Below are positions 16,151-61,229 of a stretch of 64,000 bases of DNA, one piece after another; the first letter of the stretch is position 1; the number at the start of each line of letters is the position of its first letter. This DNA comes from Stegostoma tigrinum. Taxonomy: Eukaryota. The position numbers and the translations under genes are program-made. The stretch is taken from NCBI RefSeq assembly GCF_030684315.1, contig NC_081369.1, forward strand, positions 9,152,035 to 9,216,034, given 5' to 3'. The notes beneath the pieces are model-generated. The model was given only the letters and a program-made list of their open reading frames with translations. It made no database searches and was not told the origin of the DNA.

Positions 16151-16154
16151 GTAG

Positions 16155-18338
16155 ATAATGTCCGAATACCATTTCACTTTGGAGTTATTGGGTGTGCAGT
16201 TGCTGAACTGATGTTCTTGGCACTGATGATCATTGCTCAAACATGATGCCAACTGAAGAATAACAATAGTAAGATCTATTGTAAGCTTACCATCTAAATG
16301 CAAGCCTCAGTGTTACTGATAGCTTTTTAACTAGATGCAGGAGAAGTTGATTGAAACTTGACATTGGTAACAGTGTTTGTCATCAGTGAATGTTCTTTTT
16401 AAATGCAGTTTATGAAGGAAGTATAATTACAGAATGTTAAATAAAGGCCACAATAATACGGATAATTACTTGTTTGATACAGCTATCTCTTTGAAAAATG
16501 TTAAAAGAAATGTTTACTCCTGAACAATCACTTACTCACTCATTCTGTTGTGGTCCAATCGCAAAGTGAGTGAGGGTGAGTCTGTGACCAACATAGACTA
16601 CAAGAACCAAGAGCAGCAGGAAATAGTACATCTCATCCTGATCTACTTTATAATACCAACATGACTATTTTCTATACCAACTCCATTTCCCAGTAATCTC
16701 CATATTTATTGCTACGTTACTCGTTCTTCTGTTGTGGGCTTTGCGAAAAAGTTCAATCTTTATTCTTTACTCCTATTGGTCTTTGACAAATTGGCAATGA
16801 GCTGACTGGGCACAATGGGGTACACAATGTGAAATTGTTTATGTTAGTTCAGGAAACTTAGAATAGAAAGGCAGTGTCTCTGGATAAGCAGAGTCTCAGT
16901 TGATTGTCTACAACTAAGTTAAAGAAAAGTTTAATTTGTTTGAGAATCTTTGAACTTGCATGTCCTAACCAGTTGTGTTCACGCTGTGCTAAAGTGTATT
17001 GAATTTTTAAAATTCATTCACAGAATTAGGGTGTCACTGGCCAGGCAGCATTTATTGCCCATCCCTATTTGTCCAGAGGGCAGTTAAGAGTCAACCACAT
17101 TGCTGTAGGTCTGGAATCAAATGTAGGCCAGACCAGGTAAGAATGGCAATTTCCTTCCCTAGAGGACATTAGTGACAATTGACAAGGGATTCATCGTCAT
17201 CATCAGAATGCCAAGATAGACAAATTTTGGTCTCCCAGGAATTCGGGAAATATATACTATATAGAAGAATATGCAGCTGAGGTTGAAAATCAGACTCGTC
17301 TGTCCTGAGTGGTCGAACTGTCTTCAGGGGATCTATTGTCTAGTCCAGTTAAAACCACTTGCTTTGCTATGTTTGTTGAGTGCAAACCCAATTCACAGAA
17401 CAATTAAGAGAGAATGCGGCAAATCTTTTTCTTGAGTTATATAAAGATCAGGCAGGATAAGAATGCCAAATGTTTATGCGATAAAAAAGTTTAGAGAATG
17501 GGAGATAGCAAGAACTGCAGATGCTGGAGTCAGAGTCGATACAGTATGGAGCTGGAGGAACATAGCAGGTCAGGCAGGATCAGAGGAGTAGGAAAGTTGA
17601 CATTTCAAGTCAGCATCCTTCTTCAGAACTGTTCCGAAGAAGGGTCCTGACCTGAAACGTTGACTTTCCAACTCCTCCCATGTTGTCTGACCTGCTGTGT
17701 TCTTCAAGTTTCACACTTTGTTGACAAAGTTTAAAGAATGAGGTGTTTTCCTTCATCTCCAGAAATATTATCTGATATTTCAAGAAAAACATGCAAGGAG
17801 AACATTGCCTCTAATTGCTATAGGGTGCAACATTTCAAATGCCTTGGTGCAATCCAAACTTGTAAACCATTTTTTCGTGCTGTCTTTACGTTTGATGTGT
17901 ATTTGTAATCATGGATATGGAAACTAAGTAACTATTTCAAATATTATTAATTTTATTTGTCGTCGACAAAGAGGAATGTACAAAAGTGTCAAATTGCAAA
18001 GAGGAGCTGGTTTGTGCATTCATTCCTCTAGGTAGATGCTGAAATGGCAAAGAACGCTGCTTTATTAGACATTGTATAGCATCATCATTCCAGAGCAGTC
18101 CAAGTGTATCCTCTTAAGTATTGGTCAGCTGTTAGTGTCTCTTTCAAACCAGAACATTAATGTTTGTACACCTTCTGGTAAGTGATTTGAAACTCTGTCT
18201 AAAATGATAAATTAATGATATTGTCAAACATTGGATTTGCAGACTGAATGAGTAATATCCTTTGATGGAATCATGTACACAGAGAAAAAAAGGATGTGCA
18301 AAAATGAAGAAAGAATTTCAGAATATGCCCAATTGTAG
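16155..18338 (+). pseudogene. Paralog A, 3' half of a gene-B-like receptor (TM exon 16155-16268, exon 5 17966-18009, exon 6 18243-18338)
   Basis: The TM exon is also 114 nt (DNVRIPFHFGVIGCAVAELMFLALMIIAQT*CQLKNNN) and is followed by gtaagatctattgtaagc versus gtaagatatattgtaagc in gene B. The exon-5 acceptor is mutated (cg). Exon 6 reads TE*VISFDGIMYTE...SEYAQL*. No V or C1 exon was recognised upstream. Confidence 0.8.
17500..17722. mobile_element. Penelope-derived palindromic element with two degenerate hammerhead motifs
   Basis: ccttcttcagaactgttccgaagaaggg centre; arms are reverse-complementary. Confidence 0.75.
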
Positions 18339-19233
18339 ATAAAATGCAAAGTAGACCAACAGACATGGTCCATGCAGAAGCAATACTTATCAGGAGTAAA
18401 CTTTTAGATACAAGTGCCATTCTTTTGGTGTCGGTAGTTTCTAATTAGCCTGTTCAGGAATGATATTCCACACCTACTGGAGTGGATGAGCCCTGAATAT
18501 AAGCTTCCTAGCCTAGCAGGAAGAGCACTACTTCTCCACAGAAACTTTGATTTTATTTCTGTTTTGTCAACTCAGATTTGCGTATTCAATGTGACACCAT
18601 TCCCCTAAGATATAACACATTACAATGATAGTATTAGACATTGTGCTATTTACAGTAAAATTTCAAGTATTTGGTTAAATTTGTTTTAATTGTTTTTATT
18701 ATGAAAAGTCTTCTGTTATAATTTATAATCAGCCAATACATTTCTTTATTTGTAATTTTGTAATGGTGTGACTTTGGTTCTGTTGAACATAGGTTTGAAT
18801 TCAATAAACACAGAGTCCATTCTACCCACTACATTCCCTGTTAGACTTATCTTGGTGAGTGATGTTCCCAGGTCAGTGTTTTGAGTTCTGTGGTGTTTTG
18901 CTGCATTGTGACTGCCAGTCTTGGTTATGCTCATCATATGTAATTGTTGAAGGTTCAGTCGTTGGAATAATTCATGAATCTCCTGAAAGTAAATGTCAAT
19001 TTCTGTTTTGCTAATGTTACACAGCCAGCTAACTCGCATCTGTCCTTGTGTCATCTCAAAATGTTAAATATCTTCCGGGTTCTGACATTTTTGACAGAAC
19101 TGCTCAAAAGGTTTCAGCTGTGCTCTTTCCTCAACCATTTTCAATCCGTAAATACTTCTTCACATATTCTGCAAGCAACTGCCACTAAGCGTGATGGCAT
19201 TTGCCTTTATAAAGAATCAAGGGAATCAGTACA

Positions 19234-19550
19234 GGCGGCACGGTGACTCAGTGGTTAGCACTGCAGCCTCACAGCACCAGGGACCCGGGTTCGATTCCTG
19301 CCTTGGGTAACTGTCTGTGTGGAGTTTGCACATTCTCCCTGTGTCTGCGTGGGTTTCCTCCAGGTGCTCCGGTTTCCTCCCACAGTTCAAAGATGTGCAG
19401 GTTAGGTGGATCAGCCATGCTAAATTGCACATAATGTTCAGGGGTGTGGGGGTTATAGGGGGGTTGGTCTGGGTGGGATGCTTCAAGGGGCGGTGTAGAC
19501 TTGTTGGGCCAAAGGGCCTGTTTCCACACCGTAGGGAATCTAATCTAATC
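19234..19550 (+). mobile_element. tRNA-derived V-SINE (HE1-like)
   Basis: ggcacggtgactcagtggttagc (A box), ggttcgattcc (B box), V-domain tgtgtggagtttgcacattctccc...ggtttcctcc, (TAATC)n tail. Confidence 0.9.
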
Positions 19551-22500
19551 TATTTTATGTGTGTTTTTAAACTGTTGTGAATTCAAAGATTCTATGAGAG
19601 AATGTAAAATGCATTTTTAGTTCCATGGAGCTTTTCAACAGAATTGGCAAAGCTCTCTACTGAAGGTACTATGTTTTATTTTTCCACAGTAGACTTGCTA
19701 ATCAAGCTAAGCAAAAGATGTGGTTCAGACAGTCAACTCAAAAGCATTAACACGTGATACTAAATTTAATTTTGTTCCAATAGCAATTTATTTTTGCAGT
19801 ATCAAAACAATATGATATGAATCATTCTGACAATCTCTGCCTAAAACAAAGCATATAAAGGTCAATGTGTAGGCGAACCATTAGTTCTACAGAAGGCTGC
19901 ATAATTTTAACCTCATTGGCTTACCCACCCACAGGACTAATATCCACAATGGTGAGTTGCTAATCAAGTGAAGGAAAAGATGTGGTTCAGTCATTCAACT
20001 CAAGAGCACCAACACATGGTTCTAAATTTAATTTTGTTTATTGCAGTATACTAAAAATGTGTCTAGTGATGACAAATAGCAGTTTTGTCTCATGTACACT
20101 TCAGTTTTATTACAGCACATTTATAGTTCACATCTGACAGATATTCCATTTCGTGTTTGTCTTTGTACATTTCTGAAATGCATTCTTGATACAGCTGAGA
20201 ATGTGTGAATGCTTCACCTTATATCATCAATTTCTATTTTTAGTCAAAGTATTTTTGTGTTCATGTTGACTTGACTGATGGTGAGGAGGTGAACTGTTTT
20301 ATCAATCCGAATTTTCCACTGTGCATAACATTTTTAAATACACCCATGTTTGGATTTGGTCAATTATATAAATTACATACTTGTATAATTTTCAGCATTG
20401 AGAACAAGTCAGCATGGTTCCTCTATGCAACACATTTATATTTTACTCCCAGAACAAATTACTTTGATAAAGAAGCAGTTCTTGACAATTGTCAGATTGC
20501 GTGCAAATATCTACCCTTGATAAATCTCTTAAAGAAAGAGCACACACATCTAAGGAGAAACAAATATGATGAAAATTCTGCTGTGTATTAGTTTTAACAC
20601 ACTTTGTCCAAGTGAAAAACTAAATGTAGTAAATCAGAGTAGTCCCATTTACTGTTTTGATTCAGAAATTACTCTGCACATGCATATACATACGCAGACA
20701 CACAAGTTGCTGGGATTGAGTGTCTTCCTTGAACCACTGCAATTTGCTAATTTCTCGGTACTTTGAAAATGACTTCAATTCCAAGAAAATCCTCTTCAGA
20801 AACTCTTCCATGTGGCAAAGATGACATTTGATGGGTTATCGGCTCACATGTTATTGGGATGAGTTACAAAGAAAGTGTGGTGAACAATTGGCTGTTGTCT
20901 CAGCTTAGGTAATAATTCTCTCTCCCTGACTTCAAAATCTAATAGTCTTATCTGACCGACAAATTGCTCTGAATTTTTTCTGTAAATGTTCCCAAGTCTG
21001 TACGATTCCAGCCAAGTCTCCCTTCTTCGTGCGGTTGAAACATTGTTGCAGCTTTATGCCTTTTCCTTACTAAAGTGTTCCTTGTTATAAGGCAAAGATG
21101 TGTATGTGGCCTGCACAACCTGTAATGTAATATTTGGATTGTCACCTCAGAGCACCTGCATTTTTGGCATAAAAGAACTGTCACTCAGACAAGTTTCATT
21201 ATAAGGTATTGAAGCACAAGAGAACATAAGCAATAAAGCTAGTATTCACTCAAAGTCCATCACAGTTATTCTTCTGCTCATGTTGATACTCAGTTGATTT
21301 GGAACAACATTAATTCTGGGCAATGCATCAGCTGTCATTATGATTTTTCATTGTGATATACATCTTCTTAAAGTGACAGAGGCGCAATAACAAACAATAC
21401 CAAGATACACTTACATTCTGGTTTTTGAACTGTCGATAAACATTTGGCTGTTGTGATTAGCAAACTTTAATCTCTCCATGTCACTGTGTGTGAGCCTACA
21501 CTTCAAAGCAATCATAGCAGTCTCTTCTCCAATATATATTGCCTGATCTTGGATTGATTTAATCTTTTGAAATTGTTTTCCACTGGCCTGTTTACTGCAG
21601 GGCTTTCAATTATTGCATTGCAGGGGTCTTAGACTCAAATCCTAACATTGATTTATTAATTTGAGACTTAAACAAATGTGGAAACAGGAGACAGTTTATT
21701 TTGAGGTAACTCAGGTAACTTTGCTTAGGTTATAAATACTCCCTAACAAAGCAGGGCAGTAGCTATACAGTTATATTTGGGCTCCTGATATCTGGTTCTG
21801 CTAATGGCGCTTGTTGTCACTTGGTTTTGCCATCTCTCTCCAAAGCCCTAAGGAAATTCCATGTCAGCCTGGAAGCAGGGTAATTTCAAACTCTCATGCA
21901 TGCCTTTACTTCAAAAGCTTTAGTTTATTAACTGTTTCCAAGTCACATACAACAACCTACAGCATGGTCAATTCCATCCTTACATTCTGATTGGTCTCGG
22001 CTCAGTAAGACATGCTCTGAATTGGTTTAAGCAATGAGAAAATACAATAATGAGAAGACTAGAAGTAACTGAGATAAAGAGAAATTTCTTCACCCAGTGA
22101 GTGGCGAGCCTGTGGAATTCACTGCCGCAGAAAATGGTGGAGGCCAATTCATTACATATTTTCAAGAAAGAGGGTGATAAAGCTCCTGTGGCTAAAGGGA
22201 TCTAGGGATGGATGGGAGGGCAGGATCAGGGGATGGAGCTCGATGACCATCCATGATCAAACTGAATGGTGATGCAGCTGCAAGGGATCAAATAGCTTAC
22301 TGCTGCTTCTATCTTCCATGTTTCTTGCTTCTTTAGATGCACAATCAATTTCTAATTGTCTCTGAGTGATGATGGGCATCGGCAGTTGTCACCTCCCACC
22401 TCCCTCTTTTCTGGTTCTTTAAGTTATCAATTTACCTAGAGCCCATCCTCTTTGATACATTTTGTTATTGTCTCTTTACGCATTTGTTTTACAAAACTAA

Positions 22501-24949
22501 AAGGTCCGTGTGAAATATTCTCTACCTCTGTTAAAAGGGTAGACAGGTGTATGCAGTCAAGATTCAAGGTTGATTTCCTTGAGCTCATGTCTACTAATAG
22601 TATGCTAATTTCTACAATTCCATCGTAAAGGATATGTTAAAAGTTAGAAACTTAAATATATGGGTAAAATGTTATGTCTCATACAAAGACTATATTTAAT
22701 TAATTGCTACTCATTTAAGAAAAAAATACAGCGATTATGATTTCTTTATAAAGGGCATTGAAGTGGGAATATAGCATCTCTGCCTTCTTCAACCTTTCTC
22801 AATCTTACAGCCATAATTCTAAGCATTGTTGTTATTGTAGTTACCCTGCTTTCAATCCCATGGTTCATTTCCTTGTCAAATTAAGTTAATCATAGTCACA
22901 ACATGCTAGAGTGTCAAGATCTACGTTGGCTACTCATAAGCCAAACACTATAATAGTAGATTAATCAATTCTAAAATGTGATTACAACTAAACTAAAATT
23001 AATCATTAAATGTTAGTTTCCTTACTAATCCTGAAATATATCTGCTCCATCTTCTTGAAGCAAGACTTATTATCTGACAGATATATCAGTTTTTACCCCC
23101 TATTGCATCAGTGTTATTGTTTCAGCATTTAATGTGGCACAGAAGGCTTTTTTTCTTGCAGTCAGTTGTATTAATCAAACAATTCACTTACCTTCATGCC
23201 TGCTCGAGGTTAGAAGGAGCGTGCATATTTTTAAGTTTCCAGAATCAATTCTGATATTGATTTTAGATTCTGTAAGTATTAAATTGGACATTTTTATATC
23301 CTAAAAAACAATGGCACATATTGCTGAGCAGTGCAGTACAATGTTGCTTTCTGGAAGCAAAATGATGGAGAAATCATGACTAAACAGTACTAAGAAGCCT
23401 TTGAGTTGAAGCTGGCAACAACTCTCTGATTTGTTGAATTGCAGAGTGGGGATGCAACTATTGATGCACTTTTTCCAGGTCAGTTGTGACAAAGGGCCAG
23501 AATTTCCCCACCAGCAAATTTTGAAGTACAATAATATAAGAATGCATTTGGAGTTAGGAGAGTCATAAAGGATAGACACTAGGGTCCTCATACGAAAATG
23601 AGGTGGCTTTAGAAGTCGATAAACATTACTGCAGTTGAGAGAGATATCCTTGACAAATTTGAAAGAGTTAACAAAAGCCAGACAGTTGAATCGACACATA
23701 AGTTCCCACCCAGAGCCAGGAAGGCAGAGATAATTGAAGTATTAGCCCAGCATTTGGGCTTTCTAGAATACCAGAAAGAACAGTTACTCTAAAGGAGGTG
23801 CTGGAGTTATTTAAGATAGAGTTATAGTCAAAGCTACATGAATATAAGGGAAAAGCAAAGACACTTTCAAGGGAATGGAATATAAAGAACAAGGAGTTCT
23901 TGCTAAAACTAAAAAGCAGGAGTCAGGCCACAGTTGAAATATTTTGAACAGTTTCATTCTCTTGATCTAGGGAAGGATTTATGGTATTGAGGCAGCCCAG
24001 ATAAGGTTCTGCCAGTTTATCCAGGGTGTGGAGACACTATCCTAAGAGGGGAAATTGAGTAATTTCAGCCTGAGCCTATTGGATGTTATAAGAATGAGAA
24101 ACCACCTTATGAAAGCAATAGATTCTTTGAGAATTTAACGGAGAATGTGTGGAGATGCTGTTCTATTTCATGGGAGAGTATGGGGCAAGTGGGCATAATC
24201 TCAGCGTGAGGGATGTTCATTTAAAACAGAGACTAGGATGAATTTCTTCCACTGGTTGGCAATGAGTCTTTGGAATTCTATACCAGACAAATACTCAGGC
24301 ATATTCAGTGCTGACTAGGCAGGTGTTTAAGCCAGTAAGTGTACTAACGCATATAGGAAAAGGGCAGGAAAGTGAATTTGAGGATTATCAGATCAATCAT
24401 GATCTAATTGACTGTCAGGCCAAACTCAATGGGCCGAACAGCTTAATTCTTCTCCTCTTTTATGTTCATATAGCTTATGACAGAATATGAGCTGAAAAAG
24501 GAACAGGAACACAAAAATTTTAAACACGAAGAAGAGACAGACAAAGTATTTCGTAAGAGCGATTGCAAATACGGGCATAAAATGATGCAAAAACACCCTT
24601 CAATTTCCGAAAATGGGGAAATCATTGCCATGGAATTCATTAAGGAAATATTTAAACTTCCATAGGCTCTACTTATGGAATAAGAGGAAAAGATTGCAGA
24701 GGTATCAACATGTAAATTGAGAAGTTAGCGACAGAAATGAAGCGGCAGAAGGTGAACTGGGCATTCAAACTTCTTTCCACAGGCACAGGTAGAACATTTG
24801 AACTTATACATCACCAGTGGACACTTCTTTGAATGACGATGCCATGAAGAAGAGTATAATTCGCAATATAATTTATAGTCTCATGAGCAGCCGATTTAGT
24901 ATTAGCAAGCACTGTGCCAAAACTGATGTGTGAGAGTCAGGCAGGGCAA

Positions 24950-25800: not shown

Positions 25801-28069
25801 TCAGTGGAATTAATTTTGGAAGGCAAGAGGAGACTGTACCTTAACCAATTCACTCTTATTTTCAAAACTACCAAACACGTCAGGCATCAAAAATATCCAA
25901 GTATCAAAATATTCCCAGATGCAACTTGTAAACAGTTAAAGGAACACACTGGTCACTTTGTAAACTCAATACTGCTCTGAAATCGAAACAAATTACCTAG
26001 GAATGCACAGCTGGCCAGTCGACACAGTTCCCTTATTCTCTTTCCCCCGCCTCCTGGCGAGAGGATGCTCTGGTGCTGTTGTCCTTCAGAGTAAAGCTGG
26101 AGGAGTAAGTTCGCGCTGGGTTTTATCCCTGATGCTCTTTTCAGCTTCGTCTAATCAGAGACGTTACGTCGTGTTGCTGAGTGCCGATCCTCCATTCAGG
26201 TACCCGTACTGCTCTCCTTATCCTTAATTGGTCCAGGTAGCAGCCATTATATATAAGGCTGTTACCAGTTCACTCGTTCACGTTCAACAATTCGCAGTTT
26301 CTGCATTCGTGCTCGTTCCTTTCCCTGCCAACAGAGAGAACGCTGGTATGAGTGTCCTAAGTCATTTAAAGGTTTAGGAAGATCGAAACACAAGCATTAC
26401 ATCGTTTGCCAAGAAAATCTAAATCCATGTGCTTGCACAGTTCCAGGAAAGTTCCTTAATACCTGAGGTTTTTTAAAATCAAACTTTCCAATTAGGATGT
26501 TGTGCGCTGCAGACAGTTTCCATTCAATAAAAAGACACATTATTACATTGCAGCTGAAGCGGCTGAGGCATGCGGCTGTGCTTCCTGGCTCAGAGTTAGG
26601 GACAGCACTACTACACCAGTACACTCATAAATCATGTCCTCCATTGCATCTGTTCAAATTGGGTTCACTTGTTTTCTTGGGTTCATAATGTAGCTAATAT
26701 TTCAAATAAATGAACTTCCAAAATGACAACCGCCATATTTGAATGCAGAGCTCACCATCGCTTCTCGAAAGGAAAACGTGCAGTCGATTGCGCGCTCAAC
26801 TTGCAACGTGCAGGCGCATCTCGTCCTTCCTCTTCTCTATGATCGCGTCAGCTCTTGTTGCACGTCTCCATCCGGCTTCCTTCTTACTGCTCAGTTTTCA
26901 TCCCCTCTCATAAAACTCTCAACGATGCCAATCAAAAGCACACGCTCTGGTGTGCAGGCCTGTGATGGTGGCATATAATCGCCTCTTTCTCAACCTGTCC
27001 GTAGCCCCGGGCATTTCAAACTGTTAAAGATGCTTTAACGCTTCTTCTTTGCTAGCTAGCACAATCTGATCACGTTCATTGATAGACTGCGAAACGCAGT
27101 CAGAACCTACATGACTGAGAGAAGTTACTCTCCCAGACAGTGTGAGCTTGTGGAATTCATAGTTCGACAAGGGAGTTGCATTCTTTCATGAAGAAGCTAG
27201 ATATAGTTCTTGGGAATAAAGAGATCAAAGGCTGTGGGAAGAAAGCAGGAACAGGGTACTGAATTAGATGATTAGCCATGACCAGTTTTAATCGTTGGAG
27301 CAGGTTTGGCCTACTCTTCCTCCTATCAGGACTAGTCTGTACTTCCGAAAGGCGAAACATATCTAAATGCCTTGATTATGATTTTCCTAAAGAATAGGGA
27401 ACACTGATGAAGACAATACAGATGTTGTGATATATGTGGGCATTTTAATAGTCTCACGAGGGAGAGCAGATCGCATTCCTAATGCGTGTAGAATCAAATG
27501 GAAATTGCTGTACTTGTAGCAATGACAGAAATCAAAGAAAAGCGTGAGCAGATAATACCAAATAAAATGAAGAGTTTTACATTGAGTTCTAGAGTGGAGG
27601 GGCCAAGGATATTTGTGCACGGATTGGTGAAGATGACAGTGCAAGTAGTGCAAATGACGAATAATTGTTCCTCAGTCCTTGCCGTTATGTTCATATTGTT
27701 CAAGGCAAGGAAATTCTGGTGAAGATTCTCCAAGCACAGCTCGGACGTCACTGCTGTATTGTGTAACTTTCTGGCGTTTAGGCGTCAGGAACGGTTTGAA
27801 CGCATTTCAAAAAAAGAGCTGAAACAATTTGTTAGAATGATACAAAGCATTCAGTTTCACAATATTTCGTAAGACGATTGTAATTCAATGGACCATTTTA
27901 CAAGTGATTTCATTGTCATTAAAAAAATGATGGGAGCCAACATTTCCAATTAACATCTACAAAGGGCTATCTGCTAAGAAAAACAACAGGTAGTTTTGAT
28001 TTTATGTTGATTGAAGCATAAGTATTAGCAAGAACGCTAAATATTCTACAGCGCATCTTTGAAATAGAA

Positions 28070-45380: not shown

Positions 45381-46097
45381 AGGCCTTTGGCTATGATGGC
45401 TTTGCTCATCATCACTCTCCACCTCTCTCTTCTTCACGCCAGTATGATCCTGACTGAGGGAACTAAACTCTCCTCCAATGTCACTGCTTTTCTAGCTGTC
45501 CTTTGCCCTATCCCCTGGGCTAAGTGCTGTGGTGCCACTGGGCTGATCGTGACCCAATCCCTGCATTGCAGACCCTGACCAACACTTCACTAACCAAACA
45601 CCTGAGCTTTCCTGAATGCTTGAAATGGAAGGGGGCTCTTTTTGGCTACCCTAGGCTGCTATGATTGATAGGTACCTGCATGGACTCTGCAGAGGACTCC
45701 TCCCTTAAAACTTTGAGACATGCCTGCCTGCTGGCTGCATATGATGTGTGTGTTGGTCAATAAATTGCTGGCCCATGCTGCAGGTGTGAGATTGATGTAC
45801 CACGTTGCACGTATCAGGTTTTATCCCACATTGACTATGAACTGTTCACTTGTACTGTTAGCTGCATGGTTCTGAGAGCACAGTAAAAGGCAAGGCATAG
45901 CATACATGCAGTTAGCTTGCAGGTAGGCTCTGATTGAAAGCATGTCACTAGAGCATTCAAGCAGACCTGGGAGACAACCTCTCTCTTCACAAAAGGTGCC
46001 CTTCTAGCAGACTTTTAATTCAAATCGCTGGAGTTCTTAAAAACAACCAAGTAAAGATTAATTGAATATTACAATGATAGGTACTAATTATGGCTAT

Positions 46098-46367
46098 TTA
46101 ATATGCTACTCTAAAGCGTGATTTGCAGAGAGGTGAGATTGTACAGGCTTGGAGTTCAACATGCAAAAGAGTACCATCACTACGCGTACGAGAAATATCT
46201 TTCTTATTGAAATTTTTATGGCTTGTTGTTTCTTGTGCGTAGATATTTACCATTACTTCCTTGTGTTTTCCTATCTGCAGCTCAAGCATATTCTGTGCCT
46301 CCTTCACAGAAACAATCAACACTAGCACAGTGTGAATCATCTTATTACTAAGAGCAACTCGTAGGAC
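46098..46367 (-). pseudogene. Paralog D, isolated inverted homolog of gene B exon 6
   Basis: Minus strand ctttacag|GTCCTACGAG matches cctttacag|GTCCGTCAAG. GGCACAGAATATGCTTGAGCTGCAGATAGGAAAACACAAGGAAGTA matches GGCACAGAGTATGCCCCGTTGCAGACTGGAAGACCAAAAGAAGTA. Confidence 0.75.
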
Positions 46368-49654: not shown

Positions 49655-49786
49655 TGAGATAGTGGGAACTGCCGATGCTGGAGAATCTGAGATAACAAGG
49701 TGTCGAGCTGGATGAACACAGCAGGCCAAGCAGCATCAGAGGAGCGGGAAGGCTGACGTTTCGGGCCGAGACCCTTCTTCAGAAAC
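49655..49786 (-). mobile_element. Penelope-derived fragment with hammerhead motif, a few nt upstream of the paralog C ATG
   Basis: Minus strand CUGAAGA-AGGGUCUCGGCCC-GAAACGUC. Confidence 0.8.
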
Positions 49787-52700
49787 TTTCCAATGGGTTT
49801 TCCGATGCGTGATTCTCAGGGATTTTATTTCACCAGTAACTACCTCTTTGATCATCACCAGGGCTATCTCAATTTATTGTACATTTATTTAACTAAATAT
49901 AATGTCACAATGTAACTTCGTTTCCCCCTCTTCGATTTGCATGTTACGTCCAGTACAATTAAATTCTCTACGACTCTGTTTTCTGGCAGTCGAAGAATAC
50001 GTTTATTTTTCAGAGTTGCTCAAAAGCCTAAAGAAGCTTTGTATCGTGAAAGAAGAATATCTCTTTCATCTGCTTCTTTGCATCTGGGATGAATTCCTCG
50101 ATAAAAGTGCATTGGTGGAAACAGGTGAGAATTAATTCCTACTGCCTGGCACGGATAGCAGAAAGCAATTTGATGTCAGTCATAAAGGGAGCACTTTGCT
50201 GTGCTTGGTTCAGGTGAATGTTAAGGACTGTCACTTCACTACAGCACGGTATTCGGACAAGGATCGGATCACACTGTCATGCGTATGCTAAGTCATCAAA
50301 AAACTCCTGAAAGTGGAGCAGTTAAAAATATCCAACTTTTAGCAATTGAGACGCTTGGCATGAGGCGAGTGCTGCCCTGCTCATGGCGAAGGTGTAAATA
50401 TTTCGTGAGCTTAAGGTATTTGTTGTTTTGTTGTTTAAGGTGTTGCGTTGTTTTGTCGTTCGAATGCTGGAGAATTTCAGCAGATCTGGCCGCATATGGT
50501 GAGAGAAATAAGCTTATCTGTGCTTATTTCAGATTTCCAGCACGCACAGTACTTTGCGTTCCCTGTGTGATTGATACATTGCACCTCTTCAGTTAGTTTA
50601 AGCATGATTACCAGCACATTTTCGCTCAGGCCGTAAAGAGTGCATCCATTGAAACTCCTACAGTTAATCAGTGGATTTGGTTACAATAATGTATTTTAGG
50701 GAGAGCACCCTCAGTTCGATTCAGGAGACATCTCGACATTTCAAAGATTCTCTCGTACATTTATACCACTCTTGGGACATTTCAACATGTTCATCCGCTC
50801 TCATTTTATGCTTTCATCTCTACATGTACATGGCCACATAAAAAATAAAGCAACGTAGCACTTGTTCCACTTTCATTTTTTCTCCTACTCAAAGCTAGAA
50901 CACAGCACATCCTCCTTTATCATCATCGTGTCAAAATTCCATGTAAGTATTTGTTGTTTTATTTAAAAATAATCTAATTCATCAAAAATATCGCTGCGTG
51001 AAGCAACCTCAAGTTCCTCGTTCCAACTTTAAGCAGTAAATAAGTGATATATTAACTTTCCTATTCAGCTTCCATTTTGATGCTTTCCGGTTTGCTTCTA
51101 GGAGCTGGAAAAGGCCATTCAGCCTATCAAGCCTGCCATCCCGTTGATTACAGGCATGGTTAATTGATCGTTCCAAAGCCTTCTATCTACCCTAACTGCA
51201 TAACACTGTACATTATGGGCAGTCAGAAACGCATCAGGCTCGACGTTAAATGTTCTCAATGACTGAGTTTCCGCAGTCCTGTCTGATAGAGAATTCTACA
51301 GATAAACAACTTCTGGGATTTATTAACAAAAGCAGCTGGGTTCCTTTAAACATCTACACATTTCAACCCGCTCACCATTTACGAAATAGTTTGCACGTTT
51401 GTTTTTCCTGACAAAGTGGATAACCTGATTTTTTTTCCACGTTTTATTCCATCTGGAAAGTCTTACCCGATCACAGTGTGTACTAATCTACGTGATAATG
51501 TTTCAGCTCTACCACTCCTCCTCTTACATGCATTTTTGCTTAGCTTTGCATCATCTACGATTTCGAACATATCATATTTGCTGCACACAGCCAAACCATG
51601 GATTCATATATTTTGAACATCCGGCCCCAAGCGCCCATCCATCAGCCTGGCAACGCAAAAACGATCCACTTAACCACTGACTGGCTGAAAAGCAGAAAAG
51701 CCTATCTGTGAGCATCTGCTGCATGTAACTGGCAGCCCCTTTCAACCACCTTGTTAAAATTGCCACAAGTGGCCATCTTGACAACTTTAGTCATGGCGCG
51801 CTACAGCAGCTCCTCTTCCTCCAGTTTTCCAATAGCAGGAGCTCATGGTGTTGATTATTCGGCCCACTTGCCTTTTGTTTGAAACCCCCTCATCTATAGT
51901 CATTAACCTCTTTAGTGCAGTGCTATATCTCATTGCAATTGGTCTTTGCAATACCTATTCTACACCATTCTGGTACTTTAAGTTACATTTCTCTAAAATA
52001 TTGTTTTCCTTTCAGACTTCCACCGCCGTAGTTTTCTTGTTATTTCACAGTTTAAGCTCCCTCAAAATGTTGATAAGGAATCATCATGCCTCTCTAGATT
52101 GGTTGTTCCAGTGCAATTTCAATTGTTTCTCTCTGCATAATCATAGGTGGCTTCAACTTTATTCTGCATTGCCCCAACTACAATAAACCCATGTCAGCTG
52201 AATCCTCTGTATGCACGCTGAATTCGTCTTTTGTTTGACTTTAAATCCACATGCCATTGAGCAGCTCTGCAGCAACTGTATACAGTCTGGGGTGGAATTA
52301 GGGGAATATGTCTTCTTAAAGGGTCTGGAAATGTTTGCCCCAATTTGCCTTTCGAAGTCATGATGGTTAAGCCCATGACTATCTGCCAGTACATTAACAT
52401 TATTCCAGAAATCCATGTTTTAATAGTTAAGCATTGAACTGGCGAGCATTCCCTCAGCATATGCTTTTCCATCAGCGTGAAGGAGATGGATTCCACGGTT
52501 GACTGGCGTTAGTTACCATGTTCATATGTCTTTCCCTCTTGCAGCGTGGGCGCGCATCTGTTGATGCGTTTGCTTCAACAACAAGCGAGGTTAAATGATC
52601 TTCCACGTCGTTGTCTGATGCTTCCACTCAATCGTCACACCACATGTCCGCCTCTGTTGTCTATTTTTCTAACTTCTCGGGACGCAGACTGTCTTTTACC

Positions 52701-53289
52701 GAACAGGAGGGCGTGTAGCTTTCTTGTAGTCGATGTAGTACTCATTTTATTTTTCTCTCATCGAGATTTGATTTTTTTTAGTTGATTACTGTATTCTGAG
52801 CAGCTAGTAATACTTTAAATATTCATATCATGCACTTTTGTTTCTTTTCGCCATTTTGAGTTTCTCACCAGGTATTCAGTTGAGCTGGAAATTTTGTGGG
52901 CCCTACCCTTCCTTTTTTCCAGCGATCTATTAGCTTTGTTTTATATTCATCCATTATGAATCTGTTCCATGATCCCTAAGTAACCACGCACTATCAAGTG
53001 GGCTGGATGGACATCGTTAGTTGCCACTGGCTTGTATTCTGGAACCTTCTGTCTATTAGTCTCTCCATATGACTTGATTTGACCTATCTCGCAGAGAAGT
53101 TCTGCCCAACTTTGCCAACTGCTGGTTGCCAACTGCACAGCTTCAGCATTCTCAGCTTCAGCTAACTCACAGGTTAAGGACTTTCTCAATTTGGATCACA
53201 TAATTACTGACTTACACCTTTACTATGGGTGGATAAATAACCTGTCTAGCATCTCCGTTGGTCAGTCCTCAGATGCCACAGGGACCTTG

Positions 53290-54660
53290 CTTGCAATGAC
53301 AATTGTTGGGAATCTCAAGATACTCTGCAGAAGTCACCTGTAAATAGAAGCAAGAATTGCATACCCTAAATTGTGAAGCATTGTGGAGCATGCTTCTCTA
53401 CTTTGGATGCACCGTGAAGTTTCTCAAGATCATTTGTCTGCTCTACGATTGCATGAAAGTCGCAGTAATTACCAATAGCTCCACTACCAACCCATTACCT
53501 GCTCAGACCAGTATCAAGCAGGGCTGCATCATTGCCCCAAAACTATTTTTGCTCTACCTCACCGCAATACTTCACCTCACCACCAACAAGCTCCCTGTTA
53601 GAGTAGAGATAACTTACAGAATCTTGCATAAATTATTCAACCCATACTGCCTTCAACCCAAAACCAAATCTACCCTAAACAGCATCATTAAGCTGCAGTT
53701 GACAGATGATACTTGTGTATGCGCAATTTCTAAGAACATAGTCAGCTCCTTTACAGGGGCATATGAGAGCATGTGTTTCACTTTGAGAATCCCCAATATT
53801 AAGGTCATTCATCAATCTGGAATGGCGTTATGGAGAAAAAGCCCGATCATCAAGATTCATGGGAAGGAGCCTTAGAAAATATTGATGACTTCTAGTACCT
53901 CAGAAACGTCCTGTCTGCCAAAGCAGCTAATGATAAAGAGATCTAACATTGCCTCCAGAGTGTGAGTGCAGCCTACAGCCACCTGAGGAAAATGCTGTTT
54001 GAGAACAACAACATCAGATGCAACACCAAAATCAGTGTTTCCTGCCCACCTATATGGTTCTGAGACATGGACAGATGACAGCAGACACCTCATGGCACTG
54101 GAACAGTACCAGCAATGCTACCTGCATAAGAACCTGTGAATGTCCTGGAAAGAGAGAATTATCAATGTCATCATCCTCGACCAGGCCAACATCCCCAGCT
54201 TCGAGGCACTGACCACACTTGGGCTGCAATGGGCTGGGCACGCCATCCACATGATTAACAAAAGACTCCCCAAGATGGTGCTGTAATCTCAGTTTCAAAT
54301 TTCAGACTAGTTGACTGAGGAAGCAATTCAGTGATGCCATCAAGACCTCACCAAGGAAGTGGAGCATTCCAATAGAGATACCTGGGAATCACTTGCCCAA
54401 GATGACCCAAAGTGAAGGTGCAGGATCCAGTAAAGTTTGATCACCTGGAGACTTGCCATTGGGAACAAATTGAAGCCAGGTGAAATCAGTGAAATGAGTG
54501 TATTGTGACATTAACACCTCACCCACACCATTTAGTGACCACCACCTGAACAATGTAACAGAGCCTGTAGAAGCCATATTGGTCTGTACAGCCACTTTGT
54601 ATGCACCCTCAAAGTGGAAGAGAATCATCGTCCTTGGTGAGGGACTGGTGATGATGATGA
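53290..54660 (+). mobile_element. RTE-clade LINE RT fragment
   Basis: EALWSMLLYFGC..IKQGCIIAPKLF..LFN..LQPKTK..LQLTDD; LYGSETW; LQWAGH. Confidence 0.85.
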
Positions 54661-55239
54661 TGAGTTCAAGAAAATGGCATCAGAACACACTGATGTGTGT
54701 TTGGTAAGTGAAAAAAATATTGGCAAGTGGAACAGTCTTTAAAATATCTAACTTAATTAGCATTGTTTGGCAATTCAAGTGCTGGAGAAACTCAGCAGGC
54801 CTGGTTGCATGTGGAGAGAGAAACAGAGTTAATGGAGCACTGATGAGGAGTCATACCAGAGTCGACACTGTTCCTCTCCACACATGCTGCCAGGCCTGCT
54901 GAGTTCCTCCAGCATTCTGTGTGCTTGTTTCAGATTCCCAGCATCTGCAGTACATTGCTTTTCTTTTGTGATTGTGGTATCATATCTTTTTAGTCAGTAT
55001 AATATGATTATCAGCACACATTGAGATGAATTGTCCTTACATCTTCCTTGGTGTAGTAGTGGACAACCAACACTGTACTCAGAGCATTAAAAAAACACAG
55101 AAATTTTAATCGGATTGATTACAACTGCAAATTTTATGTACTCATCCTGTACATTATGTATTATGTGTCTGATGGAGGAAGTTCTGGACAAATTAGAAAC
55201 TTATGCTGAGTGAAAATCGTATACAATAACACACTTCTC

Positions 55240-55560
55240 CCAACTTTTCGTCCATTGTGATGCTGTGCCTAATGCAATCACTATCACAATATAAAACAAA
55301 CAAATGCAGTTGCTGGAACTCTGAAGTAAAGATAGTGGAATCAAGGGTTATGGGGATAAGGCAGGAACAGGATACTGATTGTGGATGATCAGCCATGATC
55401 ATAATGGTGGTGCTGGCTTGAAGGGCCGAATGGCTTACTTCAGCACCTATTGTCTATTGTCTGACATCTTCCTAACGTCCACTCTGTCCACTCATATCTT
55501 ACTGCAGACTCCAGCTGCTTTCACACATGCAGACCCTGAGATAGAAGCTACAGTGCAATC
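55240..55560 (+). pseudogene. Probable degraded C1 exon of paralog C, split by a CR1 3'-end fragment (about 55335-55460)
   Basis: THILLQTPAAFTH matches SHASLKTPATVVH of gene B (H-x2-L-x-TPA-x3-H). SSIVMLC weakly resembles ASLTLLC. It lies between the V and TM exons as expected. Confidence 0.45.
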
Positions 55561-58500
55561 AGAAGAGCCAGCTCCTGTTTAATTTATACAGAAGTACAGC
55601 GTAAACTCTGTGCCTGTTACTGTTCAGGGAAATTGTTCATGGAAATCCTTTCTGAAACATCAAGACACATTAAAATTGAACCCAATTTCTTCTTACTACT
55701 TTCCATCACCAAAGGCTTGTCATTCTCTGCAAACATTCTTTCCCTTGCAACAAGTCAGTTTTACACAAGTTATTAACAGTAAAACGTTACATTTTCTACC
55801 TAAACATATTTCTTCACATGCTGATAATTCATATTTTTCTGTTTTGTTTTCGTTACCACTGCCTGCCATCTGTGCACTGGAGCTGTAACAATGAACAGAT
55901 TTCCCAATGTTTGCAATTGGGTATCTCCCAGCGTAGATTCCAATCTCAAACCCGAAATAACACGCAAGCAGCAAAGGGATGCTTCGGAACATAATGCCTC
56001 TCGTTTTCAGAAAATTATATGAATGCATTTATTTTAAAAAGGAAGCGAAAAAATAGATTGAGTCATCTTCTTAGAACGAATCTGCACCTTTCCCGTCCAT
56101 TGTTCAGCAGTACTTTTATGAGATTCTTAACTAGCAGCCCCATTTTACAGATCCTGAATGTATAGTCTCTATTCTGAGGGCATTACTTTAAATATTACCT
56201 CCAGTACGTTTTTTTCTGTCAGGTCATATTACAATTTGAACAGATTTGCTGAAGGGCTCAATTCAGCTAATAAAAGTGCAGCCTTTTTCATCCAACATCC
56301 ATTGTAATGTAACCATCCGTTTGAAAATGAAGCTAGTGTCAGAATACCATTTCACTTCGGAATTATTGGGAATCTGTTCGCTGGACTAATGTTCCTGGCA
56401 CCCATGATCATTGCTCGAACGTGGCATCAACGGAAGATGAACAATATTAAGTTCTACTGTACACCCACTAATTAAATGCAAACTGCAGTGTTAGTGATAA
56501 CTTCTTACTTGAACTTGGGATGAGATCTCGATTGAAACAACACTAATAACTGTGTTATCTGTCATCACAGAACGTTAGTTATTTTGAAATACAGTTTATG
56601 AACGTGCCATGATTATCGGAAGTTTAAAAAATCATCACAATAATATCGATAATTGCTTGTTTGATAGAGATGTCCTTTTTGAAACATGTTAAATGGAACG
56701 TTCACTTTTGTACAATTATTTGCGAACTCGTTGTGTTGCTGTTCAACCACGAAGGTGAAGAAGGTCGAGTGTCTGACAGACATAGACTGAAAAAGCAAAC
56801 AATAGCAGGAAACAATGCAACATCTCGACATTATTCATCTGACAATACCAACAAGACTCTTTTTCTCGACCAACTCCACTCCTCCAAATATCTCTGAATA
56901 AAATGACAGTGTATTCATTCGCCTGTTCTGAGATTTGCCAGCAAGTTCTTTATTTCTATTTGCCTGTGAGAAATTGGCGATGAACTGACTGAGCAAGATG
57001 GGGTATACACTGATAGATTTTTTTTATGCTGGCCGAGGGGACTTAAAATTGAAAAACTGCGCCTCGGTATAAGCAGTGTCTCAGTTGATCATCTACAATA
57101 AGTTCACGAGAAACTTAATTGGTTTGCGTATCTGTGAAATTACCTGTCCAAGGCAGTGTGCTTATTCTGTTAATATATATATTGAACACTATGATAGACA
57201 AGTTCTGATCGCTCATGAGTTAAGGCATCTGTACCTTGTGGCGGAAAATGCTGCTGAGGTGAAAATCAGACAGGCTTGTAAGGAGTGGCAGAGCTGTCTT
57301 CAGGGACTTATTATCCGACCCATGTCTAACCACTGACATTGCCGTGATTGCTCAGTACAAAATAATTTCACAATACAATTAAGAGACATCCCGATGAATC
57401 TTTCACTGGAATTGTATAGCGATCAAGCAGGATAAGTACGCCATAAATTCATACAATGAAGACATTCAGCAATGAGATAGTTTCACTTAGTATGCAAAAA
57501 ATGACTGGTATTTCAAGTAAAATGGAAAGAAAACATGACGTCTAGTTCCTATAACATGTGGCTTTTCAAACTCCTTTTTGCAATCTAAAATTGTTTATCA
57601 TTTTAGTCTTTGCTTTCACGTTTCATGTGTACTTGCAATCGGAAATACGATAACTAAGTAAATATTTCAAGTATTATTACATTTTATTTATGGTAGGCAA
57701 AGAGAAATATACTAATGGACCAAGATGCAAACAAGAGCAGGTAGGTGTTGAAATGGCAAAGAATTTTGCTGTAGTATAAACAGTATAACATAATCATTTC
57801 AGAACAGTCCAATCTATGATCTGAAGTACTGGTTGGTTATCAGTAATTCTTTCAACCAATGGCGAGAAATGTACCTGATAACTGATAGTGCAAGCAAAAT
57901 TTTTCATCATTCAAGGAAAATTGCCAAGTTCCTAAAAAATGTGTCGACGTAATAAGTGATTATAGATACAACCATGTTTCAGATTTGAGCAAAATAATCT
58001 TAATGTTGTAAATTTGCTGCTCATTTCACTACTACTATCATGTGGAGTGAACATTGGTAGAATTATATCATATCTATAGTGATAACTGTGCTCCTTTGCT
58101 TGCAATTTTGCTCACATACATGGATTATTGTTTGTGCCCCTCATCTCAAACCATTGTCAACTGTTGTTAACTAGTATGCAAATTGTTGAAAACCAACATT
58201 TGTATAACCAAAGATTTGCATTCTGACACATGCAGTGAGCAGTGACATATGCATTCATGAGTTGTACTGCATTGGATTTGAGCAGAGACAGGAAATGATC
58301 ACGACACAAATGTGAAATAGAAAAGTACGAGTGCCAAAGTCGCCTTATGGGCTTAGATTACCAATGTACCGTTAACATTCATACAATGATGAAGGAAACA
58401 GATTCTTTTGAACTTTGACTTTAACGTTTCATACACCTTTTGGTAACTACTTCCAAACACAGCCTGTAAATCGGAAAATGATAAATTAGTGATACTATCG

Positions 58501-61229
58501 AACATTGAATTTGCAGCCTGAACGAGTAACTATCAGTGGCAAGATAATATACAGACAGAAAACGAAAATATACAAAAAAGAAAAGAAACAGTAACGAAAT
58601 ATGTCCCATTGCAGATAAATAAAAGCAAAGTGAAATACAGACATGGTCGGTAGAGAAGTGACATGAATTAGTAACAAACAATGAAATCCTAAAGTCATTC
58701 TTTTGTTGTCGAGATTTTCTAATCAACAAGATCAAAAATATATTGAATAACTATTAGAGAAGAGGGACCAAACTACAACCTCCTAGGCCAGCAGTAGGAG
58801 CAGTGCCATTTCTCCATAATAGATTTTGCCTTTATTTCTTTATTTTGCCAATTCAGGCGTGTGAATACTGCGTGATAACATGCATTGAGATAGATCACTT
58901 TACAGTGATATCATTACACAGAATGCTATCTGCAGTAAGAAATGAATGTATTCAAGTTTTTCAAAAAAATCTCAGCAGTTTTTTTAATGGAAAAAAGGGA
59001 CTTTCTCACAAAATACACTGCTATTATTTATATGCCTATAGTCAGTCAGTATATTTCTTTGATTGTTGCAATGTAATGCTATGGCATTACCTGTGTTGGG
59101 TATAGTTCTGAATCCAACAAACACAGAAGCCATACTATCTATTATAAATCAGCATTTCTTGTAGGTTTTTCTTGGTGAGTGATATTTCCAGGTCAGTGGT
59201 TTCAGTTCTGTGGTGTTTTGCAGTCTGCTGACTGCCAGTTTTGTTTATGTTACTGATATGAAATTGTTGAAGGTTTAGTCTGTGGAATAATCCATGAATC
59301 TCCTGAAATTAGATTCCAGTTTCTTTTTTGCTAATGTTAAAGAACCACCTAGCTCACATCTATCCATGTGGGACCTGACATTTTTAAAGAATCATTCAAA
59401 TCATCTCAAAAATGTTTTTTCCTCAAACAGTGCATTTTTCTAATATTGATTCTATAACTACTTTTTTCCGATATTCTGCTTCCAACAGCGATCACATTTT
59501 GGAGTTCCTTTGCCCTTTGGACATAGAATTAATTGAATCTACCTATGTGTCTTTTTTAAATGTTGCTAATTCAAAGTTACTATGAAAGAAAACAAAACTT
59601 TTTTTTAATCGAGGAGGTTGTGAAAAGTTTGGGCGAAGGTCTCTGCAAATGGTACTGTGTTTTATTTTGCCACAATAGATTTTCCAATAGCAATCTATTG
59701 TTTCAATATTGAAACAAAGTGATATGAATCATTTTGACGGTACATTAACCAAAGAGCAGGTCTGCCTTAAAAGACGCAGAATATATTGGTCGATGTGTGT
59801 GCGAACTATTAGTTCTGCAGAAGATACACAATTTTAACTTGACTGATCATCCACATAACTAATATCAAAATGGTTAGTTGCTAATCCAGCTAATCAAAAG
59901 ATTTGGTTCAATCATTCAGATCGAAACACCAACACGTTTAATTCTAAGTTTAATTTTGTTTATTGAAGACTGCTGAATATGTGTCTAGTGATGAGTAGTA
60001 ATAGTTTTGTTTTGTGCATGTTTTGGTGTTATTATAACACAGTAACTGTGTTATCATGTCCAACAGATATTCCATTTCATGATTTTCTGTCTAATTTTTT
60101 GAAATGTTTTCTTAATATTGCTGAGAATGCGTGAGTGCCTCACCAAATATGTTATCAATTTCCATTTTTAGTCAAAGTATCTTCTTGTTGAAAATGTTTT
60201 GACTGCAAGTGGAGGGGTGAACTGTTTTCTTATGCAGATTACAATCTTGTGCTGTCCGTAGATATTTCAAATTTAGCCATGTTTGGACTTGGTAAATTAT
60301 ATATTTTGCAGATTCTATAATGTTCAATGTTGAGAACAAGCCAGCATAGTTCCTCTACTCAACAACAAATTGATATTTTATGGCCAAGACAAATTACTGT
60401 CACGAAGAAGGGAACTTGTTGACAAATATCTTTTGCAAGCAACATACGTACCTGAAATAAATTCATTACAGAAAGACTACACTCATTTATGAAGAAACAG
60501 TAGCGATGAAAAATCATCAGTCTATTACCTTTAACACACTTTGCCCAATTGACAGTTAATGAAAATAAAAAGTGCTGAATAACGACTTATCCCACTTGAT
60601 GTTCTGATTCAGGAATTACTCTACACGCACAGAAACTGCTCGACCTGACTATCTACCTTAAACCATGGCAGTTTGCTGATTCCTCTTTATGATACTAATG
60701 ACAGGGATTTTAAGAACCATTTAGAAGTGGTAATGGTGATATTTTTATGGGTCACCAACTCACAAACATTATTGGGAACAGTTGCAAAGTAAGAGTGGTG
60801 GAAGAATTGGCTGTTGTATTGCAAGTTTTAAGAGGCTTACAGTCAAATTCTAATATTATAATATTAATTTGAAAGTTTTACTAACACAGAATGCGGAGTC
60901 AGTCTCGTGCAGTAACTCAGTAACTTTATCAATGATATAAATATTACCTATTAAAACTGGGCGGTGTCTTTTGTGAATGTAGTTGGGCTCTTCATTCCTG
61001 GTCCTGCTTATGGAACAGGTTGACACTTGGTTTCTCAGTCTCCCACTAATGCCTCAACGACATTTCATGTCTGCCTAGAAGCAGGCTAACTTCACACTCT
61101 CTCATACACACCTTGTCCTCAAAAGATGTAATTTAGTAATTGTGTCCAAGCCAAAACCAACAACATGGGCAATTCCATCATTACATTTGGATTGGCCTCG
61201 GCTCAGCAAGAATTATTAATACAAACTGA

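What the first reader, a model, noticed from the sequence alone, without database searches (positions are those of the whole stretch)
16155..58653. Hidden multigene cluster: one intact receptor among at least three decayed paralogs
Seen: three co-oriented copies have identical exon sizes (114-nt TM exon, 44-nt exon 5) and the first tail Tyr at codon 12 of the last exon. A fourth remnant is inverted. Almost none of the pseudo-exons is recognisable in the ORF track. A and C share kilobases of non-coding sequence, while B aligns with them mainly in exons, so B is from an older split. Established: birth-and-death clusters are typical of leukocyte receptor families (KIR/LILR, NITR, SIRP, CD300). 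Inference: a fast-evolving receptor complex that probably extends beyond the window.
Basis: partly seen in the sequence, partly recalled or inferred. Interest (0 to 1): 0.72.

Follow-up and report, generated by a model that had tools for sequence, protein, structure and literature searches.

The report
Shark paired on/off immune receptor cluster
This shark DNA holds one intact gene for a likely inhibitory immune receptor and three broken relatives, at the edge of a megabase gene cluster in which neighbouring genes share almost identical outer domains but carry predicted opposite 'off' or 'on' signalling ends, and a recent duplication added four hybrid, predicted 'on' copies.

Summary
Largely confirmed and extended. 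Copies A, C and inverted D are real but partial. A has no V or C1, C has no C1, and D is only a last exon. Their TM exons need a family profile to detect. The window is the left edge of a ~1.1-Mb cluster with 17 genes whose V, C1 and TM exons are open; 8 carry a TM arginine, and the 7 such tails traced lack ITIMs. Three ITIM/arginine pairs share 95-99.7% identical V exons but 63-71% identical TM exons, the signature of paired receptors kept alike by gene conversion. A five-unit, 78-kb tandem array beside the window holds four chimeras: the inhibitory gene's V on an arginine TM. Close V-C1 homologues found were all chondrichthyan. The family is SIRP-like but failed the SIRP domain-count test and grouped apart from SIRP-type V domains. 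Ten paper searches found no description. This scan already noted the family at a second cluster 6.35 Mb away (e1-9544942). Function and expression are untested.

The parts
16155..16268 (+). Copy A, TM exon (114 nt, AG/GT intact, in-frame TGA); no V or C1 found upstream
   Evidence: (family DNA profile E 4.5e-11)
17966..18009 (+). Copy A, exon 5 remnant (44 nt, acceptor dead)
   Evidence: inside the A-C alignment; profile alone weak, E 0.9
18243..18338 (+). Copy A, last-exon remnant (stop at codon 3, Tyr at codon 12, second Tyr motif before the old stop)
   Evidence: blastn to copy C E 7e-27
29137..29179 (+). Gene B exon 1, signal peptide
29346..29660 (+). Gene B exon 2, V-set domain with germline-joined J-like G strand (alternative acceptor at 29352)
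   Evidence: Pfam V-set E 1e-9
30660..30980 (+). Gene B exon 3, C1-set domain
   Evidence: Pfam C1-set E 8e-12
32218..32331 (+). Gene B exon 4, uncharged TM segment (114 nt)
32867..32910 (+). Gene B exon 5 (44 nt)
33411..33512 (+). Gene B exon 6, two Tyr motifs; read-through of its donor would end at a stop at 33542.
33710..33853 (+). Gene B exon 7, two Tyr motifs and stop; a tandem duplicate of exon 6
   Evidence: exon-6 profile hits exon 7, E 1.5e-5
45412..46367 (-). Remnant D: inverted last exon plus 3' flank, closest to arginine-type genes X and Z
49990..50285 (+). Copy C, frameshifted V exon (3' end approximate)
   Evidence: (E 1.4e-24)
56333..56446 (+). Copy C, TM exon (frame open, donor dead)
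   Evidence: 80% identical to A's TM exon
57697..57740 (+). Copy C, exon 5 (44 nt, AG/GT intact)
   Evidence: E 0.005
58236..58340 (+). Copy C, exon 6 remnant with stops (ends approximate)
   Evidence: (E 3.5e-5)
58517..58653 (+). Copy C, last-exon remnant (Tyr at codon 12, frameshift)
   Evidence: (E 0.03)

Best explanation
The window is the left edge of a cluster of non-rearranging V-C1 membrane receptor genes of cartilaginous fish, in which gene B has an intact frame and is likely an inhibitory receptor, A, C and D are decayed fragments, and neighbouring genes form predicted on/off pairs whose outer domains were likely kept alike by gene conversion. Shown: gene structure, decay, cluster extent, ectodomain-versus-TM mosaicism, the 78-kb array and its chimeric genes. 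Inferred from motifs and from known paired families: after ligand binding, B's four tail tyrosines would be phosphorylated and recruit SHP-1/2 phosphatases, and the arginine-TM, ITIM-less members would signal through an FcRgamma/CD3zeta-type ITAM adaptor. Inferred from sequence: unequal crossing-over inside the already homogenised C1 exon of genes X1 and Y created four extra genes that put Y's V domain on X's arginine TM. The likely driver is a microbe that exploits the inhibitory receptor, countered by activating look-alikes; this step is untested.
For: B's seven exons join into a 360-aa open frame with canonical GT-AG sites; four public runs cover it with 6 substitutions and no indels. Of 17 cluster genes with open V, C1 and TM exons, 8 have a TM Arg. 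X tails and Z have no ITIM-type Tyr beyond the TM exon, and g9913's traced exon has none. Across 49 de-duplicated database family proteins, 0 of 10 with the Arg have two or more ITIM-like motifs against 25 of 39 without (Fisher P 2e-4; median tail 15 vs 100 aa). V/C1/TM DNA identity: X2-Y 99.7/98.6/63.2, g10224-g10255 99.0/98.6/70.5, g9865-g9913 95.1/85.1/63.8. Identity peaks on the V and C1 exons and falls in the introns. The V+C1 tree joins each Arg gene to a non-Arg partner (100/100, 100/100, 100/99), while the TM tree joins Z with X (99/99). X2-X5 switch from Y-type to X1-type sites at the C1 exon. Array units are 98.7-99.9% identical with a period of 76.7-78.2 kb. Two zeta-family adaptor genes exist in the genome. 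The pattern matches 'merohomogenization' (PMC3210942, abstract and discussion part 1 read).
Against: No expression, ligand or signalling data. NCBI models the X genes as 247-276-aa proteins that end after C1 with no TM (P0004, P0151, P0176). Their C1 donor is GC, although the same GC donor is spliced in the model of Y (P0152). X2, X4 and X5 have one juxtamembrane Tyr in a TxYxxI context at the end of the TM exon. One Arg protein (P0061) has a long tail with one motif, and 14 of 39 non-Arg proteins have fewer than two motifs. A looser first count gave a weaker split (8 of 18 vs 37 of 46, P 0.007). The rows are predicted models and are not phylogenetically independent. No tail was found for g10224. 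In the TM tree the g9913+g10224 grouping is unresolved, although they are 80% identical. V dN/dS was below 1 in 12 of 13 pairs, so no diversifying selection is shown.
Confidence: 0.8

Rival explanations
1. These are the true shark SIRP genes, moved to another chromosome, with one C1 domain instead of two.
For: NCBI names many members SIRPalpha- or SIRPbeta-like. SIRPalpha (2wng) is a top non-antibody PDB hit of the family profile (E 1e-30). No SIRP-type V was found elsewhere in the genome with one sturgeon query or within 120 kb of the C23 SEP gene, so the SIRP role looks vacant.
Against: The 41 family V domains form one clade (96/91) apart from 4 SIRP-type V domains (deeper branching unresolved). 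Most members seen have one C1. Both SEP-domain genes lie on other contigs, and the flank is AMFR-BBS2-NDRG-like. The charged TM residue is Arg near the outer face, not the mid-membrane Lys recalled for SIRPbeta1.
Confidence: 0.15
2. They are B7/B7-H6/butyrophilin-like ligands rather than receptors.
For: The top VIA-align row for the model of gene Y is B7-H6 (Z 17.1, rmsd 3.8, 193 aligned), with PD-L2 third (Z 16.5). Some NCBI names say B7-H6-like, CD276 or tapasin-like.
Against: The top rows are tied with unrelated two-domain Ig proteins (Rst, Z 16.7). Foldseek ranks antibody light chains first. The ITIM/Arg split with converted ectodomains is a receptor-type pattern.
Confidence: 0.07
3. Only B-like genes work; the X array is neutral segmental duplication (or partly an assembly artefact) of secreted or dead genes.
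For: NCBI's TM-less X models; GC donor; the units also carry dead copies; four sampled pieces reach 99.9% identity.
Against: All five X TM exons have open frames with AG and GT sites. The copies differ at diagnostic sites. Single-contig depth over the X2 V and TM regions is about 4 times that of gene B in run X1 and about 3 times in X2-X4 (a rough hint, not a copy number). Exon-limited conversion predates the array.
Confidence: 0.15
4. The family is a direct relic of the pre-RAG antigen-receptor ancestor, like UrIg or PRARP.
For: Single-exon VJ plus C1; UrIg2 is the best PDB hit of B's C1 exon (E 8e-17 summed over three stretches).
Against: The flank is not MHC- or AgR-complex-like (UrIg loci from PMC12227049). 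ITIM/Arg signalling ends; similarity to antibody chains is about 20% identity.
Confidence: 0.08

Closest known systems
SIRP family (SIRPalpha inhibitory, SIRPbeta1 activating)
   Same: VJ-type V plus C1 ectodomain, multi-tyrosine inhibitory tail, clustered paired members (SIRP features recalled; SIRPalpha and SIRPgamma hits).
   Different: One C1, separate V clade, AMFR/BBS2/NDRG flank rather than a SEP-gene neighbour, TM Arg rather than Lys (Lys recalled).
Paired opposing receptors with merohomogenization (PIR, Ly49, NKG2; PMC3210942) and Siglec-5/14, Siglec-11/16, CEACAM pairs (search listing and abstract starts only)
   Same: Ectodomain exons homogenised between inhibitory and activating partners while the signalling exons stay divergent.
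   Different: Found here in a cartilaginous fish, on a VJ-C1 scaffold, with a recent 78-kb amplification of chimeric arginine-type copies; ligand unknown.
NITRs of ray-finned fish (bioRxiv 10.1101/2021.06.11.448072, passages read)
   Same: Single-exon VJ, clustered, ITIM members and TM-Arg members, many pseudogenes.
   Different: The second domain is a two-cysteine C1-set domain, not the six-cysteine I domain.
UrIg / UrIg2 of sharks (PMC12227049, part 1 and passages read)
   Same: Non-rearranging VJ followed by C1.
   Different: UrIg is described as secreted, multi-C1, and linked to the MHC or the AgR complex; this family is membrane-bound and multigene.

Membership tests
Paired opposing Ig-superfamily receptors | Inhibitory member with cytoplasmic ITIM/ITSM-like motifs and an uncharged TM | tested here: met
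   Gene B and gene Y
Paired opposing Ig-superfamily receptors | Activating member with a charged TM residue and no ITIM | tested here: met
   X1-X5, Z and g9913; tail of g10224 not found; 0 of 10 vs 25 of 39 in database proteins
Paired opposing Ig-superfamily receptors | Ectodomains homogenised between partners | tested here: met
Paired opposing Ig-superfamily receptors | Shared ligand and opposite signalling in leukocytes | not testable with these tools
   needs expression and biochemistry
SIRP | V-C1-C1 ectodomain (recalled) | tested here: not met
   Single C1 in B and in the 19 aligned members; one of 64 rows (P0078) shows two near-identical C1 copies
SIRP | V domain groups with SIRP V domains | tested here: not met
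   Family clade 96/91 apart from 4 sturgeon/bichir SIRP-type V domains; only those 4 were available, deeper nodes unresolved
SIRP | Locus beside NSFL1C (recalled from human) | tested here: inconclusive
   SEP-domain genes found on C5 and C23, not C19; which one is NSFL1C was not established; no V/C1 family or SIRP-type exon in 120 kb round the C23 gene; flanks of cluster 2 not examined
SIRP | Binds CD47 | not testable with these tools
   The CD47 profile search rang nowhere, including controls, so it is uninformative
NITR | Membrane-proximal I domain with six conserved cysteines | tested here: not met
   The second domain is Pfam C1-set with two invariant Cys (definition)
NITR | Single-exon V with J-like end | tested here: met
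UrIg | Secreted VJ-C1-C1-C1, MHC or AgR-complex linkage | tested here: not met
   TM exon and one C1; flank AMFR/BBS2/NDRG-like
PRARP | Defining features as published (Fu et al. 2019) | not tested
   Paper not requested; seen only as a citation and a one-line mention in PMC10751288
B7 / B7-H6 | V plus C two-domain fold | tested here: inconclusive
   B7-H6 is the top row but tied with unrelated Ig pairs

The most novel reading that the evidence does not exclude
Cartilaginous fish have their own, unnamed leukocyte receptor complex of dozens of VJ-C1 paired receptors, independent of SIRP and NITR. In it a pathogen arms race is caught in the act: a copy-number-variable 78-kb array that turns one inhibitory receptor's V domain into several activating decoys. 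This would push paired receptors with ectodomain homogenisation back to the base of jawed vertebrates and give candidate shark NK or myeloid receptors.
Probability: 0.45. Interest if true: 0.8.

Novelty: new variant of a known kind. Interest (0 to 1): 0.62.

Why it matters
The decayed copies in the window are ordinary birth-and-death debris. What they point to is not ordinary. Shark germline-encoded inhibitory and activating receptors are poorly mapped (own knowledge). This family carries at least six different automatic names (SIRP-like, tapasin-like, MHC class II-like, B7-H6-like, CD276, uncharacterised), and its arginine-type array members are modelled without their TM. The chimeric array allows a direct test of the 'inhibitory first, activating decoy second' idea with identical V domains on opposite signalling ends, and of copy-number variation between sharks. 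The family also adds a large set of single-exon VJ-C1 genes to the debate on antigen-receptor origins.

Tried and rejected
B-only tblastn and Smith-Waterman scans did not find the TM, exon 5 or C1 remnants above shuffles. A word-index search with the V exon among longer proteins found nothing at E 1e-8. A possible separated J-like end of C's V at 54664-54711 (E 0.19) vanished with a larger profile and had no flanking intron match, so the idea of a V/J split by an insertion was rejected. Run search: no RNA holder listed, so no evidence on expression either way. No contig spans the chimeric C1-to-TM junction from the V side. CD47 profile search: uninformative. Sturgeon SIRP-like query: not found with this query. 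Fold searches gave generic Ig matches and did not separate families; SIRP was absent from the rows shown, which excludes nothing. Pairwise dN/dS showed no whole-domain positive selection. No family V, C1 or tail exon was found in the readable upstream flank; part of that flank is withheld. Paper searches returned nothing. Searches returned no paper whose listing describes this family. Term look-ups found no SIRP mention in PMC12227049, PMC10751288, PMC7677710, or PMC3964593 and its supplement. Ohta 2019 and Flajnik 2012 were not held. Fu 2019, Kinlein 2021 (recalled) and Dornburg and Yoder 2022 were not read and may mention the family; bioRxiv supplements were not seen. No complex prediction was run.
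Full report
What is in the window. Gene B has seven coding exons: 29137-29179, 29346-29660, 30660-30980, 32218-32331, 32867-32910, 33411-33512 and 33710-33853. All have GT-AG sites and they join into a 360-aa open frame. Pfam calls exon 2 V-set and exon 3 C1-set. The V exon contains its own J-like G strand, the TM is uncharged, and exons 6 and 7 each carry two tyrosine motifs. Four public runs from two samples cover B in long contigs with six substitutions and no indel.

The remnants. With B alone as query only the inverted last exon at 46367 is clearly significant; the V at 49990 is marginal and the TM exons of A and C do not rise above shuffles. DNA profiles built from up to 15 family genes (20 shuffled windows as control) gave: V at 49977-50229 E 1e-24, A TM E 4.5e-11, C exon 5 E 0.005, C exon 6 E 3.5e-5, D E 1e-18, C last exon E 0.03, C TM E 0.08, A exon 5 E 0.9, no hit for A's last exon, and no second C1 anywhere. 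The weak ones are anchored by the A-C alignment, 5.5 kb at 68.5%, and by direct reading: 114 nt, 44 nt and Tyr at codon 12 hold in A, B and C. A is therefore a TM-plus-tail fragment, C a frameshifted V with a TM and tail but no detectable C1, and D a last exon with 3' flank. C's dead TM donor is shared with its 71%-identical copies in the neighbouring array, so the decay is old (inference).

The cluster. The window is G000:C19:9152035-9216034. V and C1 exons recur from 9.18 to 10.26 Mb, again from 2.1 to 3.0 Mb, and once at 13.68 Mb of the same contig. I fetched 1,017,966 of the 1,117,966 bases from the window start to 10.27 Mb; the missing part lies inside the array. That stretch has 20 full-length open V exons and many broken ones, and 17 genes with open V, C1 and TM exons; leaders were not checked for all. 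No family exon was found in the readable upstream flank, so copy A is the left edge. The right flank has AMFR-, BBS2- and NDRG-type exons, neighbours that I recall from human 16q12-21. Named proteins identical to genes beside the window are labelled Stegostoma tigrinum. All 25 hits of the family profile at E 1e-25 are sharks, rays or chimaera (a word-index search of limited reach, with a profile built from chondrichthyan-type members). Their automatic names are inconsistent.

Paired receptors. Eight of the 17 genes (X1-X5, Z, g9913, g10224; names by position in kb) have an arginine 16-18 apolar residues before the cytoplasmic boundary, a spacing I recall for FcRgamma-coupled receptors. X and Z tails have lost the tyrosine motifs through small deletions and frameshifts; g9913's traced exon stops early; g10224's tail was not found. 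In database proteins, 66 of about 99 family rows had a TM and were kept, forming 49 groups at 85% identity. Of these, 0 of 10 with the arginine have two or more ITIM-like motifs against 25 of 39 without (P 2e-4). A looser first count gave 8 of 18 against 37 of 46. These are predicted, related models. Three arginine/non-arginine pairs have V exons 95-99.7% identical and TM exons 63-71% identical. Sliding windows peak on the V and C1 exons (93-100% in X1-Y and g10224-g10255; V only in g9865-g9913) and drop to about 60-85% in most intron windows. The V+C1 tree joins each arginine gene other than Z to its non-arginine partner with full support, while the TM tree joins X with Z (X4 and X5 left out as near-identical). 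This is the pattern named merohomogenization in PMC3210942 (abstract and discussion part 1 read). Two zeta-family adaptor genes are present in the genome.

The 78-kb array. Beginning 6 kb to the right of the window, five units of 76.7-78.2 kb run from 9,222.1 to 9,611.7 kb, 98.7-99.9% identical in the pieces compared. Each unit holds a C-like dead copy and an intact gene. At sites that distinguish X1 from the inhibitory gene Y, copies X2-X5 are Y-type through leader and V and become X1-type at the C1 exon. The simplest reading is unequal crossing-over in the converted C1 tract, followed by amplification. Single-contig depth over X2's V and TM is 81 and 77 against 19-20 for B in run X1, and 23-30 against 8-10 in runs X2-X4. 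The tool warns that depth is no copy number, so I take this only as a hint that the segment is multi-copy in both samples and may vary. NCBI models the X genes without a TM. Their C1 donor is GC, and the same donor is spliced in the model of Y; RNA is needed to decide.

What family. The 41 family V domains form one clade (96/91), separate from SIRP-type, NCR3-like, reptile and teleost V domains taken from my search hits; deeper nodes are unresolved and several subfamilies have orthologues in other sharks and rays. The family works like SIRP or NITR pairs, but it has one C1 rather than two, lacks the NITR I domain (definition from bioRxiv 10.1101/2021.06.11.448072, passages), and is not on a contig with a SEP-domain gene. 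An AlphaFold model of Y (mean pLDDT 75.8) gives V, C1, a TM helix and a disordered tail; fold searches return generic two-domain Ig proteins. V dN/dS is below 1 in 12 of 13 pairs.

Novelty. Ten searches of the held library showed no description of the family; key subscription papers could not be read. The system they belong to is a new variant of a known kind, with the chimeric amplification as its most striking feature. Interest 0.62.

Noticed in passing
window 49990-50124: NCBI's model of the next gene to the right (P0176, gene X1) begins with this piece of copy C's dead V exon, read out of frame and cut at a cryptic GT donor. It may reflect a read-through transcript or a modelling artefact.
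   Followed up: partly
window 33411-33853: Exons 6 and 7 are tandem duplicates, and exon 6's donor lies inside its second Tyr motif; read-through keeps YxxV and gives a shorter two-Tyr tail. The same layout is seen in several paralogues.
   Followed up: partly
G000:C19:9222936, 9611688 and 10036197 regions (L021, L042, L105): C1 exons of the X/Y/g10037 subclade use a GC donor where B has GT.
   Followed up: partly
window 26000-34000 versus 16000-24000: CpG observed/expected is 0.6-1.1 across gene B and 0.13-0.34 across copy A; it is also high (0.95) just before C's V exon.
   Followed up: no
L079:3715-3801: An exon with a glutathione S-transferase C-terminal match lies about 16 kb left of the window.
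   Followed up: no
G000:C19:13678021-13689099 (L157, L158): A lone family gene 3.4 Mb from cluster 1 has a close relative in another species (P0060, support 100/93), perhaps a conserved single-copy member.
   Followed up: partly
G000:C19:2.1-3.0 Mb (L165-L184): The second cluster has about 25 C1 exons, including inverted near-identical pairs and at least one TM-Arg gene near 2,249.8 kb; only 200 kb were fetched.
   Followed up: partly
window 29360: All four public runs differ from the window at this V-exon base, a missense change near the N terminus.
   Followed up: no
window 2600-7100 and 36370-37500: Several large inverted-repeat elements with CA/GT microsatellite cores, probably non-autonomous DNA transposons.
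   Followed up: no
proteins P0078 and P0102: Two database proteins at 85% or more identity differ in TM and tail (long Tyr tail versus Arg and short tail), a possible further pair or alternative exon in another species.
   Followed up: no
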